Part shown: piece by piece, positions 39,213-43,494 of the stretch
How the letters are laid out: every line of letters begins with the position of its first letter
Position numbering within the stretch: position 1 is the stretch's first letter
DNA from: an uncultured Bacteroidota bacterium
GTDB taxonomy: Bacteria; Bacteroidota; Bacteroidia; 2-12-FULL-35-15
Assembly: GCA_963727705.1 (NCBI GenBank)
Contig: CAVSHK010000024.1
Coordinates: 199,950-263,949, forward strand
DNA length: 64,000 bases
Reading direction: 5' to 3'
Position numbers and translations under genes: made by a program
The notes under the pieces: model-generated
Seen by the model: the letters and a program-made list of their open reading frames with translations, nothing else
Told to the model about the DNA's origin: nothing
The model's database searches: none

Positions 39213-40640
39213 ATGAATTATAAAAAAACAATAACCTCAATTATACTAATAGTAGGGTCGGTTCTTGTTACAAATGCTCAAACCGAAGGTGTGTCAATTA
39301 AATCAACGGTTGGACCTCCGGATGCTTCTGCAATGTTAGATGTACAAAGCTTAAACAAAGGAGTACTAATACCAAGAGTGAATCTGATGAGTTTAAGTGA
39401 TAATTCAACTGTTCCTAACCCTGCATTATCACTTTTGGTATATTGTTTAGGTACCGCAACAGGTGGTTTACCTGCCGGATATTATTATAATTCGTCTGCA
39501 ACAACCACTCCGGCATGGATTAAAATTTCAGGATCAGGGGACGATTTATGGACCCTGGCTACAAATAAAACAGATATTTATAGAAATACAGGGGTTGTAA
39601 TGATTGGCATAACTGATCTTAGTATTTATACAAATACCTGGGGGGCTAAATTATGGATAGATGAGGGAACTCTAACTCTTGCTGGTACTAATGTTTATAC
39701 AGGTACAAATGCCATTGTTTATGGAAGTATGGGACCCCATCCATTTTATACCGGTTTAAGAGCAAACGGAACAAAAAGCAACCCGGCTCCTTGCAAAAAT
39801 GGAGATGTGTTGTGTGCATTTATTGGTCGAAGTTATGTTGGCCAAGTATCGTATAACGCTGGTGGTTCCAACATTTATATGCGAGCCACCGAAGACGAAA
39901 CCCCAAGTGGCCACGGATCAAATATTTCTTTTCTTACAACAGCAAACGGCAGCAGTCCAAGTATAGAGCGAATGGTGATTGACCAAAGTGGTGATATTTT
40001 TATTGGGAATTCATCTGGTACCGGTTCTAATCCAGCAAATCGCTTACAATTTAGAAGACGAAACGGAGATTTAGCTTTTTCCTGTGGCTATATGGATGAT
40101 GCTGAATTTAGATTATATAATCCTACAGGAGATAATGTGCTCAGTTACTGGGGAGGTAATGATAATGTGGCGTATGAAGACATGCATATTGATTATGCAG
40201 GTAATTTAGTTATGAAAGGTTCGGTTACGGCGAATGGTTCTGTACTTAATTCAGATTCCACACTTAAAACAAACATTGTTAACCTTAAGGGAAGTTCGCT
40301 TTTAAAAATTAAACAATTAAGACCCGTAACTTATTGTTTTAAAAGCGATACAGCACACCTTGTTGAAACAGGATTTATAGCTCAGGATGTTCAAAAGGTT
40401 ATACCGGAGCTGGTAACAAACGTAAAAACGTTAAGAACAAGTAATTCAAAAGTATATTCATACAATTTAGGTTTAAATTACATTGGCATTATCCCTCACT
40501 TAGTAAAAGCCATACAGGAGCAAGAGGTTTTAATTGAACAGTTACAACAACAAAACGCTTTAATACAACAGCAAAATACTTTAATACAACAGCAAAATAC
40601 TTCATTAAGCAATAGAATTCAAGCACTTGAAAATAAATAA
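39213..40640 (+). CDS. Tail-fibre-like secreted protein with a C-terminal intramolecular chaperone (peptidase S74) domain, paralogue 1
   Basis: Signal peptide. C-terminal NSDSTLKTNIV...LRPVTY...GFIAQDVQKVIPELV...LNYIGIIPHLVKAIQEQ, then a Q-rich coiled coil. Confidence 0.85.
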   Translation: MNYKKTITSIILIVGSVLVTNAQTEGVSIKSTVGPPDASAMLDVQSLNKGVLIPRVNLMSLSDNSTVPNPALSLLVYCLGTATGGLPAGYYYNSSATTTPAWIKISGSGDDLWTLATNKTDIYRNTGVVMIGITDLSIYTNTWGAKLWIDEGTLTLAGTNVYTGTNAIVYGSMGPHPFYTGLRANGTKSNPAPCKNGDVLCAFIGRSYVGQVSYNAGGSNIYMRATEDETPSGHGSNISFLTTANGSSPSIERMVIDQSGDIFIGNSSGTGSNPANRLQFRRRNGDLAFSCGYMDDAEFRLYNPTGDNVLSYWGGNDNVAYEDMHIDYAGNLVMKGSVTANGSVLNSDSTLKTNIVNLKGSSLLKIKQLRPVTYCFKSDTAHLVETGFIAQDVQKVIPELVTNVKTLRTSNSKVYSYNLGLNYIGIIPHLVKAIQEQEVLIEQLQQQNALIQQQNTLIQQQNTSLSNRIQALENK

Positions 40641-40670
40641 TATCCAAAATAATGCTTTATATAACACAAA

Positions 40671-42017
40671 ATGAATTATAAAAAAACAATAACCTCAATT
40701 GTATTAATAGCAGGGTCGGTTCTTGTTACAAATGCTCAAACCGAAGGTGTGTCAATTAAATCAACGGTTGGACCTCCTGATGCATCTGCAATGTTGGATG
40801 TGCAAAGCTTAAACAAAGGAGTACTAATACCAAGAGTGAATCTGATGAGTTTAAGTGATAATTCAACTGTTCCTAACCCTGCATTATCACTTTTGGTATA
40901 TTGTTTAGGTACCGCAACAGGTGGTTTACCTGCCGGATATTATTATAATTCGTCTGCAACAACAACTCCGGCATGGATTAAAGTTTCTGGATCAGGGGAT
41001 GATTTATGGACCCTGGCTATAAATAAAACAGATATTTATAGAAATACGGGTAACATTGGAATAGGAACTATCACACCAAGTTATAAAATTCATTTAAAAA
41101 GAGTCAACGCCAATGATATCAATTCAATTGGGATGGAAGATGCTTATACAGGTGGTGGAAATGAAACAAACATGTTTTCAGTCGAAGCAGGAGATGGCGC
41201 AGGACGTTTAGTTTCTGATAAATCAATTGCCACTTTTATTGATAGTGATAATAATTCTACTGATGCTATTTTTGAGCTTAGGCATGATGAGGGCTATTAT
41301 TCAGGGCCATCCGGAAGGTCTCTTTTTAAAGTAGATGAATGGGGTCATTTTTGGTTTGGAGATGAAACATCGAACATTCGTCCTGATTTAATCTTTGGTA
41401 CTATAGTAGCTGGTGCAAAAGGACATACTGTTCATGAGATGTTTGGCCCTTGGTCAAGCCAAGCAAATGGAGATCCTGGATCATTTTATATTGATTGTGG
41501 ATCAAGTTCTGACGGAAGTAAAAATAATTTTTATATCTATGATGGAAGTGCTTATAATACCAAACATGATTTTTCATGCGGAACGATTAATTTATTTTCT
41601 GATAATACTTATGTTTCCGGAAATTTAGTTGCCCATGGTACTGTTAGCCCCTCCGACTCAACATTAAAAACGAACATTGTAACCATTGGGTCTTCTTTAA
41701 ATAAACTAAAACAAATACGTCCGGTAAATTTTAATTGGAAAACAGGAAATACTAAAACACAAACAGGGTTTATTGCTCAGGAAGTGGAACATGTTTTTCC
41801 GGAACTTGTTTCCAGCTACATATTGCCATCTTTTCCTAATCAACCGCAATCGACCGTACAAAAACTTTCGGTTGATTATGTAAGTTTTATCCCTCACTTA
41901 GTAAAAGCCATACAGGAGCAAGAGGTTTTAATTGAACAGTTACAACAACAAAATGCTTTAATACAACAGCAAAATACTTTATTAAGCAATAGAATTCAAG
42001 CACTTGAAAATAAATAA
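40671..42017 (+). CDS. Tail-fibre-like protein with S74 chaperone domain, paralogue 2
   Basis: The first ~125 aa nearly match paralogues 1 and 3. The centre diverges. C-terminal SDSTLKTNIV...GFIAQEVEHVFPELV. Confidence 0.85.
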   Translation: MNYKKTITSIVLIAGSVLVTNAQTEGVSIKSTVGPPDASAMLDVQSLNKGVLIPRVNLMSLSDNSTVPNPALSLLVYCLGTATGGLPAGYYYNSSATTTPAWIKVSGSGDDLWTLAINKTDIYRNTGNIGIGTITPSYKIHLKRVNANDINSIGMEDAYTGGGNETNMFSVEAGDGAGRLVSDKSIATFIDSDNNSTDAIFELRHDEGYYSGPSGRSLFKVDEWGHFWFGDETSNIRPDLIFGTIVAGAKGHTVHEMFGPWSSQANGDPGSFYIDCGSSSDGSKNNFYIYDGSAYNTKHDFSCGTINLFSDNTYVSGNLVAHGTVSPSDSTLKTNIVTIGSSLNKLKQIRPVNFNWKTGNTKTQTGFIAQEVEHVFPELVSSYILPSFPNQPQSTVQKLSVDYVSFIPHLVKAIQEQEVLIEQLQQQNALIQQQNTLLSNRIQALENK

Positions 42018-42048
42018 TATCCCCCAATAATGCTTTATACAAAACAAA

Positions 42049-43494
42049 ATGAATTATAAAAAAACAATAGCCTCAATTATACTAACAGTAGGGTCGGTTC
42101 TTGTTACAAATGCTCAAACCGAAGGTGTGTCAATTAAATCAACAGTTGGACCTCCGGATGCTTCTGCAATGTTAGATGTACAAAGCTTAAACAAAGGAGT
42201 ACTAATACCAAGAGTGAATCTGATGAGTTTAAGTGATAATTCAACTGTTCCTAACCCTGCATTATCGCTATTGGTATATTGTTTAGGTACCGCAACAGGT
42301 GGTTTACCTGCCGGATATTATTATAATTCGTCTGCAACAACAACTCCGGCATGGATTAAAGTTTCGGGATCAGGGGATGATTTATGGACCCTGGCTACAA
42401 ATAAAACAGATATTTATAGAAATACAGGGGTTGTAATGATTGGCATAACTGATCTTAGTATTTATACAAATACCTGGGGTTCTAAATTATGGGTAGACGA
42501 AGGTAATATTACCATGGTTGGCACAAATATGTATACAGGTCCAACTGCTGTTGTTTATTCAGATAACGGAACTCATCCTTTTTATATGGGACTTAGAGCA
42601 AGAGGATCTAAAAGTTCACCGAATTATTGTCAGAGTGGAGATGTTTTAGGATGTTTTGCCGGACGAAGCTACAAAGGAAGTACTATTGATCATTGTGACG
42701 GTTCAGATATTTATATGAGAGCTACTGAACTTGAATCTGCCGGGGGGCATGGATCAAATATTACTTTTCAAACGACGGCAAATGGTAGCGCTTCAAGTAT
42801 AGAGCGAATGGTGATTGATCAAAGTGGAGATATAGGTATGGGCATAAATCCACCACAGGCGCAACTACATATCAAAAGAAATAGTGGTGTAAGCATTCTT
42901 TTAGACAATCAAAGCAGTTCACCGGGTGATGCAAATCTTTTTCAACTTTCTTCGGTAGGTGGTGATAGCCGTATATATAGTAATGCAGGAATAGACCTAT
43001 TTACAAATTCAAATAACTCTACCCCAAACTCAACCGGCTTTGTTGTGTATGCGAATGTGCGCTATGCTCAAGGTGACCCCTTGTTTAATGTTACTACTGA
43101 TGGGCATGTATATGCGGCAAACGGTGTTCTTATAGGTTCGGATTCTACTCTAAAAAAGAATATTGTTTCATTAAATGAAAGTTCTATTCAAAAAATCAAA
43201 CAGCTCAGACCTGTTTATTATCAGTTGAAGACAGATCCCACCGGTGCTAAGCAAACCGGCTTTATTGCTCAGGAAGTGGAAACTGTTTTACCGGAATTGG
43301 TTACCACCCGCAGCTTTGATATTGAAAATTCATCAGGGACTACTGTTTCAACCAAGCAATTGCTTTCGCTGAATTATATAGGAATTATCCCGCATCTGGT
43401 AAAAGCAGTGCAGGAGCAAGAGGCTTTAATAGAGCAATTGCAACAGCAAAACACTGCATTAACAGCAAGAATACAAGCATTGGAAAATAAATAA
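42049..43494 (+). CDS. Tail-fibre-like protein with S74 chaperone domain, paralogue 3
   Basis: Same N-terminus. Shares an additional ~150 aa with paralogue 1. C-terminal GSDSTLKKNIV...GFIAQEVETVLPELV. Confidence 0.85.
   Translation: MNYKKTIASIILTVGSVLVTNAQTEGVSIKSTVGPPDASAMLDVQSLNKGVLIPRVNLMSLSDNSTVPNPALSLLVYCLGTATGGLPAGYYYNSSATTTPAWIKVSGSGDDLWTLATNKTDIYRNTGVVMIGITDLSIYTNTWGSKLWVDEGNITMVGTNMYTGPTAVVYSDNGTHPFYMGLRARGSKSSPNYCQSGDVLGCFAGRSYKGSTIDHCDGSDIYMRATELESAGGHGSNITFQTTANGSASSIERMVIDQSGDIGMGINPPQAQLHIKRNSGVSILLDNQSSSPGDANLFQLSSVGGDSRIYSNAGIDLFTNSNNSTPNSTGFVVYANVRYAQGDPLFNVTTDGHVYAANGVLIGSDSTLKKNIVSLNESSIQKIKQLRPVYYQLKTDPTGAKQTGFIAQEVETVLPELVTTRSFDIENSSGTTVSTKQLLSLNYIGIIPHLVKAVQEQEALIEQLQQQNTALTARIQALENK

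What the first reader, a model, noticed from the sequence alone, without database searches (positions are those of the whole stretch)
39213..43494. Three tandem tail-fibre genes with conserved ends and swapped middles
All three start with an almost identical ~125 aa, including the signal peptide (MNYKKTI.SI.L..GSVLVTNAQTEGVSIKSTVGPPDASAMLDVQSLNKGVLIPRVNL...). Even the ~25 nt upstream of genes 2 and 3 are conserved.

All three end with the S74 intramolecular-chaperone signature: (N/P/G)SDSTLK(T/K)NIV ... LRPV.(Y/F) ... TGFIAQ(D/E)V..V.PELV ... IIPHLVKA(I/V)QEQE. The centres differ. Genes 1 and 3 share a further ~150 aa before diverging, and gene 2 diverges at aa ~127.

The extreme C-termini differ by copy number of a 21-bp Q-rich heptad repeat (QQQNALI / QQQNTLI, about 40557-40598). 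This is the arrangement expected for alternative receptor-binding fibres, here as Sec-secreted chromosomal genes beside an RHS toxin rather than in a phage.
Basis: partly seen in the sequence, partly recalled or inferred. Interest (0 to 1): 0.6.

Follow-up and report, generated by a model that had tools for sequence, protein, structure and literature searches.

The report
Triplicated surface-fibre genes in RHS cluster
Three neighbouring genes of an uncultured freshwater Bacteroidota bacterium encode exported, phage-tail-fibre-like self-cleaving fibres with one shared front end and different shafts and tips; this fibre type is very common, but here it is a fixed part of a conserved, unstudied RHS toxin gene cluster.

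Summary
Three co-oriented ORFs (475, 448 and 481 aa) share a signal peptide and a 105-aa N-domain that is 94-98% identical. Their centres differ. Each ends in a Pfam Peptidase_S74 intramolecular-chaperone domain with an intact SDxxxK Ser-Lys motif, followed by a coiled coil carrying 3, 2 or 1 copies of a 21-bp repeat.

They are not prophage genes. They belong to the very large cellular PTL_trimer (PF26696) + S74 fibre class, about 60,000 clusters at 50% identity. The closest studied relatives are the Bdellovibrio MAT fibres; genes 1 and 3 match the Bd1334 and Bd2133 beta-helix.

Two things are specific to this locus:
- The fibre gene is a fixed member of a conserved cluster: giant adhesin, Skp, lipoprotein, A (~1,950 aa), B (240 aa), C (DUF6443, ~1,530 aa), fibre, RHS toxin, immunity. 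I found it in at least 12 other loci, and their N-domains form one clade.
- The N-domain block has recently been homogenised. Synonymous sites are 86-93% identical there, against 29-47% in the S74 core. That is the extreme among 157 within-locus pairs.

Most likely these are three alternative binding fibres on a common docking module. Any role in aiming the RHS toxin is inferred, not shown.

The parts
39213..40640 (+). Fibre gene 1 (475 aa). Signal peptide aa 1-22; PTL_trimer N-domain aa 23-127; beta-helix shaft aa ~128-280; tip aa ~281-346; S74 chaperone plus coiled coil aa 347-475 (predicted cleavage before S347, with K352 as the dyad partner).
   Evidence: ORF. PF13884 at aa 347-402. PF26696 and PF13884 precomputed for this protein. 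Match to Bd1334 (8OML) at aa 158-272, E 7e-8. Model pLDDT 84-97 for aa 350-475, with MyRF ICA TM 0.69.
40671..42017 (+). Fibre gene 2 (448 aa). Same signal peptide and N-domain; unrelated centre aa 128-327; S74 chaperone aa 328-448 (S328/K333).
   Evidence: The centre has no PDB sequence match. It does match phage tail-fibre PHROGs, e.g. phrog_9942 at aa 124-429, E 3e-17.
42049..43494 (+). Fibre gene 3 (481 aa). Same signal peptide and N-domain; shaft shared with gene 1 to about aa 280; different tip aa ~281-363; S74 chaperone aa 364-481 (S364/K369).
   Evidence: Matches Bd1334 (8OML) E 9e-13 and Bd2133 (8OND) E 2e-5.
39212..39594 (+). Homogenised 5' block (signal peptide plus N-domain). Further copies lie at 40670-41052 and 42048-42430.
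   Evidence: Direct-repeat family D1, 97-98% identity. Four-fold degenerate sites 86-93% identical.
40489..40670 (+). Junction repeat: the 3' coiled-coil end of gene 1 plus the spacer. It recurs at 41887-42048 (end of gene 2 plus spacer) and includes the 21-bp Q-rich heptad repeat at 40543-40602.
   Evidence: Repeat families D2 and D3 at 96-98%; TRF; alignment A2.
27853..33754 (+). Cluster protein A (~1,990 aa; N-terminal membrane anchor). In this window it is split by a frame change near 31637-31695.
   Evidence: 50-53% identical to the intact 1,953-aa protein of L081. Only a sub-threshold SpvB/DUF6531 hint.
33806..34528 (+). Cluster protein B (240 aa, secreted, no known family).
   Evidence: Syntenic homologues at 33-53% identity in 8 loci. 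No Pfam or PHROG hit.
34595..39147 (+). Cluster protein C (~1,530 aa, contains DUF6443). In this window it is split by two frame changes, near 37738-37749 and 38818-38861.
   Evidence: tblastn with intact homologues. DUF6443 at E 1.9e-6, above the cut-off, in the L004 homologue.
43541..44441 (+). Two small secreted paralogues (144 and 142 aa, 40% identical) lying between the fibres and the RHS gene. They are unique to this genome.
   Evidence: No homologue in about 90 related loci; no Pfam, NCBIfam or PHROG hit.
44508..56372 (+). RHS toxin (3,733 aa; Sec signal, adhesin-like N-terminal half) followed by a putative immunity gene (220 aa).
   Evidence: YD-repeat hit. 47-52% identity to the RHS genes that follow the fibre slot in related loci.
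19957..27690 (+). Upstream part of the conserved cluster: giant PKD/Ig adhesin, an OmpH/Skp-like chaperone (26511-27056) and a lipoprotein (27025-27690).
   Evidence: Pfam. The same order is seen in L081: giant protein, OmpH, 214-aa protein, A, B, C, fibre, RHS.

Best explanation
The three genes encode cell-made, Sec-exported trimeric fibres of the PTL_trimer/S74 class, which is the Bacteroidota counterpart of Bdellovibrio MAT fibres.

**Proposed mechanism**
1. Signal peptidase I cuts after TNA. This leaves an N-terminal Gln, as in many Bacteroidota exported proteins.
2. The C-terminal S74 intramolecular chaperone and its coiled coil bring three chains together. They template the interdigitated beta-helical shaft from the C-terminal end.
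3. The chaperone then cuts itself off before Ser347, Ser328 or Ser364, using a Ser-Lys dyad. The coiled coil with its variable heptad number leaves with it, so that length variation is probably neutral slippage.
4. The mature fibre (~305-340 aa) has the shared N-domain as its proximal docking end and the variable region as its distal binding end. Genes 1 and 3 share a MAT-like beta-helix shaft and differ only in the last ~65-85 residues, the tip. Gene 2 has a different shaft and tip.
5. The cell can therefore mount three binding specificities on one docking site.

**Link to the RHS cluster**
This fibre type always occupies the slot between protein C (DUF6443) and the RHS toxin gene of a conserved cluster, and its N-domain forms a cluster-specific clade. 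So the fibres most likely serve that system, as the adhesion or target-recognition part of contact-dependent RHS toxin delivery.

**Origin of the array**
The array arose by tandem duplication through the junction repeat. Its 5' module has been kept near-identical by recent gene conversion or module exchange.

**Shown:** domain identities, catalytic motif, fold of the C-terminal domain, mosaic DNA history, synteny, and absence of phage context.

**Inferred:** trimerisation, self-cleavage, surface display, binding function, and the link to toxin delivery.
For: **S74 domain**
- The S74 HMM hits all three genes.
- Ser and Lys of SDxxxK are invariant across 30 family members.
- The C-terminal model has pLDDT 84-97. 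It matches the MyRF ICA domain (7dc3, TM 0.69), the endosialidase chaperone (3gw6) and the T5 pb1 chaperone (4uw8).

**Relation to MAT fibres**
- The shafts of genes 1 and 3 match the beta-helix of Bdellovibrio MAT fibres Bd1334 and Bd2133 by sequence: E 7e-8, 9e-13 and 2e-5.
- The gene 1 / gene 3 similarity ends near aa 280. That is where the Bd1334 beta-helix module ends and its swappable tip begins (PMC10769870, section 13).
- The MAT design is a signal peptide, a conserved ~130-aa N-domain, a variable fibre, and S74 with SDxxxK. MAT fibres are surface displayed and self-cleave (PMC10769870).

**N-domain**
- PF26696 PTL_trimer is precomputed on these proteins.
- Its model is beta-rich with pLDDT 83.

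**Not a phage**
- 112 phage records match only aa 118-433, never the N-domain.
- The window carries MnmG, KsgA and an aminotransferase, and no phage structural genes.

**Cluster link**
- The order A, B, C, N-domain gene(s), RHS is seen in L001, L002, L004, L005, L008-L011, L013, L036 and L084-L087.
- All 16 cluster-linked N-domains form one clade. SH-aLRT is 96; the tree needs 1 change against 15.5 in shuffles, and 0 of 500 shuffles were as low.
- Genes are 30-66 nt apart on one strand, with no intergenic terminator-like site.

**Mosaic history**
- N-domain identity of 94-98% is the extreme of 157 within-locus pairs, whose median is 51%.
Against: - There is no experimental or expression data. 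The only public run holding this organism is a low-depth sediment metagenome.
- The central regions fold with low confidence as monomers (pLDDT 35-55), so shaft and tip structures are not established.
- The loci showing synteny were found by searching with the fibre N-domain. So 'the fibre is always in the cluster' is shown only in one direction.
- Most PTL_trimer/S74 arrays in other Bacteroidota have no RHS neighbour. The class as a whole is therefore not RHS-specific.
- In this genome A and C carry three frame changes. If these are real, the RHS system may be decaying.
- The export route across the outer membrane is unknown. The fibres have no T9SS sorting domain.
- Homology of this N-domain to the Bdellovibrio MAT N-domain could not be tested.
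Confidence: 0.6

Rival explanations
1. The fibres are general-purpose surface adhesins, for substrate, biofilm or cell-cell attachment. They merely travel with the RHS cluster, for example because they share regulation or a genomic island. They play no part in toxin delivery.
For: - The PTL_trimer N-domain family is huge: 59,932 clusters at 50% identity.
- Most tandem arrays in other genomes have no RHS, A, B or C neighbour.
- Bdellovibrio MAT fibres act as adhesins without an RHS partner (PMC10769870).
Against: - The cluster-linked N-domains form a single well-supported clade.
- They always occupy the same slot between C and the RHS gene, across loci whose proteins are only 30-60% identical.
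- Simple hitch-hiking rarely keeps gene order over such divergence.
Confidence: 0.27
2. The fibres act inside the envelope, in the periplasm or outer membrane. There they would be a structural or assembly part of the machine that exports or presents the RHS protein and the giant adhesins, rather than an outward-facing binding fibre.
For: - The fibres carry no T9SS or other outer-membrane export signal.
- A Skp-like chaperone and a lipoprotein are conserved in the same cluster.
- In Vicingaceae and Flavobacteriales loci the fibre slot holds short N-domain proteins without a long shaft or S74 (L009-L011).
Against: - Variable shafts and tips on a constant N-domain are the signature of outward-facing specificity determinants.
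- The homologous Bdellovibrio fibres are surface displayed (PMC10769870).
Confidence: 0.08
3. The array is a cassette-switching system. One gene would be expressed, and the others would act as donors for recombination through the identical 5' and 3' blocks.
For: - There are 380-nt and ~150-nt repeats at 96-98% identity flanking variable centres.
- Similar orphan-module layouts are known in Rhs and CdiA loci (my own knowledge).
Against: - All three genes are complete, each with its own start codon, signal peptide and intact S74 motif.
- No invertible segment or nearby recombinase was found; the only resolvase is about 20 kb away.
- No population data show switching.
Confidence: 0.04
4. The genes are remnants of a prophage or tailocin tail-fibre module.
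For: - There are strong PHROG tail-fibre hits over the shaft and S74 region.
- One IMG/VR contig (L088) carries an N-domain-bearing fibre next to tape-measure and baseplate-hub genes.
Against: - No phage structural, lysis or integration genes lie beside them in 64 kb.
- Sec signal peptides are present.
- The N-domain is absent from 50,697 phage records. It was found in only 4 of 2.9 million viral contigs, against 298 places in 185,579 genomes with the same kind of pattern.
- The conserved non-phage synteny argues against it.
Confidence: 0.01

Closest known systems
Bdellovibrio bacteriovorus MAT (mosaic adhesive trimer) fibres, S74 subgroup, e.g. Bd3182; also Bd1334 and Bd2133 (Caulton et al. 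2024, PMC10769870)
   Same: - Same overall design: a signal peptide, a conserved beta-rich N-domain of ~100-130 aa, a variable trimeric beta-helical fibre, and a C-terminal S74 chaperone with SDxxxK.
- Paralogues share shafts but have swapped tips.
- There is direct sequence similarity between the shafts of genes 1 and 3 and the Bd1334 and Bd2133 beta-helix.
   Different: - These fibres are much shorter: ~450-480 aa against ~600-1,150 aa.
- The host is a non-predatory-type Bacteroidota MAG.
- The genes are tandem, with a nearly identical N-domain.
- They are embedded as a fixed gene in an RHS toxin cluster.
- Homology of the N-domains themselves was not testable here.
Phage tail fibres and tailspikes with a C-terminal intramolecular chaperone (endosialidase of phage K1F, PDB 3gw6; T5 L-shaped fibre pb1, PDB 4uw8)
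   Same: - The S74 domain, its Ser-Lys motif and its fold are shared.
- The shaft regions hit phage tail-fibre PHROGs.
- The logic is the same: a conserved attachment end and a variable receptor-binding end.
   Different: - These genes have a Sec signal peptide and a cellular N-domain. That N-domain was not found in 50,697 phage records.
- They are not accompanied by any virion genes.
MyRF (myelin regulatory factor) ICA domain, PDB 7dc3
   Same: It is the best structural match of the C-terminal domain (TM 0.69), and there is a sequence match at E 2e-3 to 1.5e-4. It is a trimerisation-dependent self-cleaving module.
   Different: MyRF is a eukaryotic membrane-bound transcription factor. Only the self-cleaving module is shared.
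Polymorphic toxin loci (Rhs, CdiA) with conserved ends and exchanged modules (Zhang et al. 2012, PMC3482391)
   Same: - Both have modular genes with constant and variable parts that are reshuffled by recombination at conserved junctions.
- These fibres sit physically next to an RHS toxin and its immunity gene.
   Different: - The variable part here is a binding fibre, not a toxin tip.
- All copies are complete genes rather than orphan fragments.
- PMC3482391 lists 'tail fibre' only as a repeat type inside toxins, not as a separate partner gene.

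Membership tests
Peptidase_S74 / intramolecular chaperone auto-processing domain | Match to Pfam PF13884 above the gathering score | tested here: met
   55.4, 59.4 and 57.9 bits against a cut-off of 22.
Peptidase_S74 / intramolecular chaperone auto-processing domain | Catalytic Ser and Lys in an SDxxxK motif | tested here: met
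   SDSTLK is present in all three genes (S347/K352, S328/K333, S364/K369). Ser and Lys are invariant in a 30-member alignment.
Peptidase_S74 / intramolecular chaperone auto-processing domain | Fold of the chaperone domain, ending in a long helix | tested here: met
   The model has pLDDT 84-97 for aa 350-475. Foldseek gives 7dc3 at TM 0.69 and probability 1.00, and 3gw6 and 4uw8 at probability 0.95-0.99.
Peptidase_S74 / intramolecular chaperone auto-processing domain | Trimer-dependent self-cleavage | not testable with these tools
   This needs expression of the wild type and a Ser-to-Ala variant.
PTL_trimer (Pfam PF26696) N-domain family | Match to PF26696 | tested here: met
   Precomputed Pfam hits are listed for the window's own three proteins and their relatives. 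The model is not in the local Pfam copy, so no score of my own. My own profile of 112 N-domains finds 59,932 clusters.
MAT (mosaic adhesive trimer) superfamily | Signal peptide followed by a conserved beta-rich N-domain of ~130 aa | tested here: inconclusive
   A signal peptide and a beta-rich N-domain are present. As reported for the MAT N-domain, it has no PDB structural homologue; the best Foldseek E-value is 4.1. Sequence homology to the Bdellovibrio N-domain could not be tested, because no Bdellovibrio full-length sequence was within reach.
MAT (mosaic adhesive trimer) superfamily | Beta-helical fibre region related to solved MAT shafts | tested here: met
   Gene 1 against 8OML gives E 7e-8. 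Gene 3 against 8OML gives 9e-13 and against 8OND 2e-5. Gene 2 has no such match.
MAT (mosaic adhesive trimer) superfamily | Display on the cell surface | not testable with these tools
   No experimental data exist for this organism.
Prophage or tailocin tail-fibre module | Adjacent virion, sheath, tube or baseplate genes | tested here: not met
   Neighbours give no phage families in Pfam or PHROGs. The window ends are housekeeping genes and a T9SS cargo gene.
T9SS cargo proteins | C-terminal sorting domain (Por_Secre_tail or type B CTD) | tested here: not met
   The fibres give no such hit. The ORF at 57906-58994 in the same window does, at E 4e-13.
Conserved RHS cluster (giant adhesin, Skp, lipoprotein, A, B, C, fibre, RHS); unnamed, defined here | Gene order A, B, C, N-domain gene(s), RHS on one strand | tested here: met
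   The window and L001, L002, L004, L009, L010, L036 and L081 show the whole order. Partial versions are seen in L005, L008, L011, L013 and L084-L087.
Conserved RHS cluster (giant adhesin, Skp, lipoprotein, A, B, C, fibre, RHS); unnamed, defined here | N-domain belongs to the cluster-specific clade (mature N-terminus QTEGVSIK) | tested here: met
   The tree of 155 N-domains places all 16 cluster-linked ones in a single clade (SH-aLRT 96).

The most novel reading that the evidence does not exclude
The PTL_trimer fibre would be the interchangeable targeting subunit of an undescribed Sec-dependent, multi-protein RHS toxin delivery system of Bacteroidota. The system would comprise a giant adhesin, Skp, a lipoprotein, A, B, the DUF6443 protein C, the fibre, and RHS with its immunity gene. 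The cluster-specific N-domain would dock the fibre onto a cluster-encoded partner. This genome would then have triplicated the fibre to aim one toxin at three kinds of target surface. The docking module would be kept identical by gene conversion.
Probability: 0.3. Interest if true: 0.75.

Novelty: new variant of a known kind. Interest (0 to 1): 0.42.

Why it matters
How Sec-exported RHS toxins of Bacteroidota reach and recognise target cells is not known. These toxins lack the PAAR or VgrG parts used by type VI systems.

A phage-derived, self-cleaving fibre sits in a fixed slot of a conserved RHS cluster. Here it is triplicated with swapped tips. That gives a concrete, testable candidate for the recognition component.

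The finding also extends the MAT-fibre idea from a predator to ordinary environmental Bacteroidota. By itself, however, the fibre class is common and already named in Pfam. The three genes are an instructive example rather than a new kind of object.

Tried and rejected
- **Prophage or tailocin origin: rejected.** There are no phage genes in the window. The N-domain is absent from phage records, and a viral-contig scan with the gene 1 N-domain found nothing.
- **NCBIfam:** no family for any of the three fibres.
- **Literature:** searches for Peptidase_S74 + Bacteroidetes, PF26696, PTL_trimer and DUF6443 returned nothing. The broad polymorphic-toxin review mentions tail-fibre repeats only inside toxins.
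- **Supplements of the MAT paper:** they hold no usable list of non-Bdellovibrio relatives or N-domain sequences.
- **Strain comparison for cassette exchange:** the metagenome scan gave only two distant hits. The one run that holds the organism has depth 2-4 and short contigs that stop at the repeats. So neither copy-number variation nor the frame changes in A and C could be checked.
- **Seeding a census on protein B:** only 3 relatives were found, so an unbiased test of 'is the fibre always present' failed.
- **Monomer AlphaFold model of the whole fibre:** the shaft and tip had pLDDT below 50, so no tip fold could be assigned.
- **A as an SpvB/TcB-like protein:** only sub-threshold hits, E 0.006-0.03, and no PDB match. 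Not accepted.

Full report
**1. Observation**

They encode 475, 448 and 481 aa.
- The protein alignment shows residues 1-127 almost invariant. Gene 2 diverges at residue 128. Genes 1 and 3 stay similar to about residue 280.
- All three end in a conserved block containing SDSTLK(T/K)NIV, TGFIAQ(D/E)V, PELV and IPHLVKA(I/V)QEQE.
- Pfam's Peptidase_S74 model hits each protein far above threshold: 55-59 bits against 22, E about 1e-15.
- Tandem Repeats Finder gives a 21-bp unit with 2.9 copies in gene 1 (40543-40602) and 2.0 copies in gene 2 (41941-41981). Gene 3 has one copy.
- The conserved sequence upstream of genes 2 and 3 is part of a longer repeated junction. It comprises the 3' end of the preceding gene, the 30-nt spacer and the next gene's 5' block.

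**2. The conservation pattern is a mosaic history, not only selection**

I compared four-fold degenerate sites within codons for identical residues.
- In the N-terminal block they are 86-93% identical between paralogues.
- In the S74 core of the same genes they are 29-47% identical. Fisher p is 4e-5, 2e-7 and 9e-4.
- The 3' coiled-coil end of genes 1 and 2 is also 98% identical at the DNA level.

So the 5' module, and between genes 1 and 2 the 3' end, has been copied between the genes recently. The route was gene conversion or unequal crossing-over through the junction repeat. The middles and the chaperone cores are old.

Among 157 pairs of N-domains from genes that share a locus in related genomes, the median identity is 51% and the next highest value is 85%. 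The window's 94-98% is the extreme.

**3. What the proteins are**

*N-terminus.* Each protein starts with a typical signal peptide (MNYKKTITSIILIVGSVLVTNA|QTEG). A Gln would follow the cut, as is usual for exported Bacteroidota proteins (the 'Q-rule', from my own knowledge).

*C-terminal domain (residues ~347-475 of gene 1).*
- It models with high confidence, pLDDT 84-97.
- It superposes on the MyRF ICA domain (7dc3, TM 0.69), the endosialidase intramolecular chaperone (3gw6) and the chaperone of the T5 L-shaped fibre (4uw8).
- The Ser and the Lys five residues later are invariant in a 30-member alignment. These are the catalytic dyad described for this family (PMC10769870).

*Central regions.*
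- In genes 1 and 3 they match the beta-helix of the Bdellovibrio fibres Bd1334 (8OML; E 7e-8 and 9e-13) and Bd2133 (8OND; E 2e-5).
- The gene 2 centre has no solved relative. It does resemble phage tail-fibre families.

*N-domain.*
- It is the Pfam family PF26696, 'PTL_trimer', according to the precomputed annotation of these very proteins.
- A model built on 112 homologues is beta-rich with mean pLDDT 83.
- It has no significant match in the PDB; the best E-value is 4.1.

*Comparison with MAT fibres.* The architecture is the one described in 2024 for the 'mosaic adhesive trimer' (MAT) fibres of Bdellovibrio.
- MAT design: a signal peptide, a conserved ~130-aa N-domain, a variable trimeric fibre, and either an S74 domain with SDxxxK or another tip.
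- In MAT fibres, surface display, S74 self-cleavage and tip swapping between paralogues were shown experimentally (PMC10769870).
- Bd1334 and Bd2133 share the fibre and differ in the tip, which begins right after the beta-helix. In the window, the gene 1 / gene 3 similarity ends at about residue 280, at the end of the stretch that aligns to that beta-helix.
- Genes 1 and 3 therefore look like one shaft with two different tips. Gene 2 looks like a different shaft and tip.

**4. Not a phage, and how common the class is**

*No phage context.*
- The window begins with MnmG, KsgA and an aminotransferase.
- It then runs through giant Ig/PKD adhesins, the cluster described below, an RHS toxin, a T9SS cargo gene and a resolvase.
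- No virion, sheath, tube or baseplate gene was detected.
- Against 50,697 phage records, gene 1 matches 112 records. The matches cover only residues 118-433, never the N-domain.
- MnmG places the organism among uncultured 'Bacteroidia/Bacteroidota bacterium' MAGs. The only run holding it is a freshwater sediment metagenome.

*The class is ordinary.*
- My profile of the N-domain finds 59,932 clusters at 50% identity (38,214 at E <= 1e-10), often with several copies per protein.
- Two short peptide patterns found 298 places in 185,579 species genomes.
- 33 of 81 loci hold two or more N-domain genes, and some hold up to ten in a row.

*Earlier notes of this scan.* They list many such arrays, and several lie upstream of RHS genes. 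I reached the MAT link and the cluster independently before reading those notes. They are not independent evidence.

**5. What is specific here: a conserved RHS cluster**

*Gene order.*
- The closest relatives of the fibres all sit in one gene order: A (~1,950 aa), B (~240 aa), C (~1,530 aa, with a DUF6443 domain at E 1.9e-6 in the intact L004 homologue), then the N-domain gene(s), then a giant RHS toxin and a small downstream gene.
- One locus fetched further upstream shows the cluster starting with a giant protein, an OmpH/Skp-like chaperone and a ~214-aa protein.
- The window has the same order: 19957-27690, then A, B and C.
- Additional contigs found through two other relatives again show C, fibre, RHS.

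*Contents of the fibre slot.* They vary between loci:
- one S74 fibre of 376-607 aa (L001, L002, L004);
- one or two short N-domain proteins without S74 (L009-L011, L013, L036);
- three S74 fibres plus two unique small secreted paralogues in the window.

*Phylogeny.* In a tree of 155 N-domains, the 16 cluster-linked ones form a single clade. SH-aLRT is 96; one change is needed against a mean of 15.5 in label shuffles, and 0 of 500 shuffles were as low. The three window copies form a tight terminal group.

*Operon-like layout.* The genes are 30-66 nt apart on one strand, and I saw no intergenic terminator-like site. Every protein of the cluster has a signal peptide or an N-terminal anchor.

**6. 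Mechanism proposed**

*Supported by sequence and fold, by analogy with studied S74 proteins.*
- The proteins are exported by Sec.
- The C-terminal chaperone nucleates the trimer and templates the shaft.
- The chaperone cuts itself off at the SDSTLK serine. The variable-length coiled coil leaves with it.

*Inferred.*
- The shared N-domain is the proximal docking end, and the variable region is the distal binding end.
- The three paralogues offer three specificities on one docking site.
- Because of the fixed slot and the cluster-specific N-domain clade, the fibres serve the RHS system as its adhesion or target-recognition part.

*Main rival.* The fibres are ordinary adhesins that merely co-inherit with the cluster. 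The large majority of PTL_trimer/S74 arrays lack any RHS neighbour.

*Caveats.*
- The synteny set was ascertained through the fibre. A reverse census seeded on B failed for lack of sensitivity.
- In this genome A and C carry three frame changes, near 31637-31695, 37738-37749 and 38818-38861. The available reads do not cover them. They may be assembly errors or real decay.
- The route across the outer membrane is unknown, and the fibres have no T9SS sorting domain.

**7. Comparison with known families, and novelty**

*Comparison and membership.*
- Membership in the S74 family is met on HMM, motif and fold.
- Membership in PF26696 rests on the precomputed annotation and on my own profile.
- Membership in the MAT superfamily is met for architecture and for shaft homology (genes 1 and 3). 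It is undecided for the defining N-domain, which I could not compare with Bdellovibrio sequences.
- Phage-module and T9SS-cargo membership both fail.

*Novelty.*
- I found no paper on these Bacteroidota fibres, on PTL_trimer or on DUF6443 in the searchable library.
- I rate the three genes as a new variant of a known kind. They are MAT-like fibres fixed in an RHS toxin cluster, with an unusually fresh module exchange.
- Interest is moderate. The class is common and was seen repeatedly in this scan, but the cluster link gives a testable handle on how Sec-dependent RHS toxins of Bacteroidota find their targets.

Noticed in passing
window 31637-31695, 37738-37749, 38818-38861: Cluster proteins A and C are each interrupted by frame changes: one in A and two in C, each shifting to the next frame. 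Intact homologues read straight through. The sites are not long homopolymers, and the only available metagenome contigs do not cover them. They could be real decay or assembly errors.
   Followed up: partly
window 43541-43975 and 44013-44441: Two small secreted paralogues (144 and 142 aa, 40% identical) lie between the fibres and the RHS gene. They have no homologue in about 90 related loci and no family hit.
   Followed up: partly
L088 6768-11774 (IMG/VR UViG_3300025882_000391): A 1,668-aa collagen-like fibre carries the same N-domain (51% identity to gene 1 aa 25-95) and what looks like a signal peptide (...SFAVYS|QQGVSIN). It lies directly after tape-measure and baseplate-hub genes. It is either a phage that uses this N-domain or a prophage/host boundary. 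With that pattern, only 4 such hits occur in 2.9 million viral contigs.
   Followed up: partly
L009 9911-11223, L010, L011 (Flavobacteriales and Vicingaceae MAGs): In these clusters the fibre slot holds two tandem short N-domain proteins (~235 and ~195 aa) with no S74 domain. So the N-domain, not the S74 fibre, is the constant element of the slot.
   Followed up: partly
protein representatives P0121-P0270: The PTL_trimer domain often occurs 3-11 times within one protein, including giant proteins of 2,000-4,000 aa. It is therefore a repeatable module and not only an N-terminal anchor.
   Followed up: no
window 9515-56806: Every protein of the long same-strand run has a predicted signal-peptide cut followed by Gln: NAQ, SQN, AQT, GQN. 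This applies to the adhesins, B, C, the fibres, the small paralogues and the RHS protein. It fits the Bacteroidota pyroglutamate 'Q-rule' (the rule is from my own knowledge).
   Followed up: no
window 56000-64000: GC content falls from ~38-42% to 28-32% right after the RHS immunity genes. The region holds an orphan 646-aa ORF on the minus strand and a serine resolvase (62917-63483). This may be the edge of a mobile island.
   Followed up: no
L008 and L013: Short contigs carrying the Bacteroidota-type cluster are binned in MAGs labelled Akkermansia and Cellvibrionaceae. This is probably mis-binning rather than transfer.
   Followed up: no
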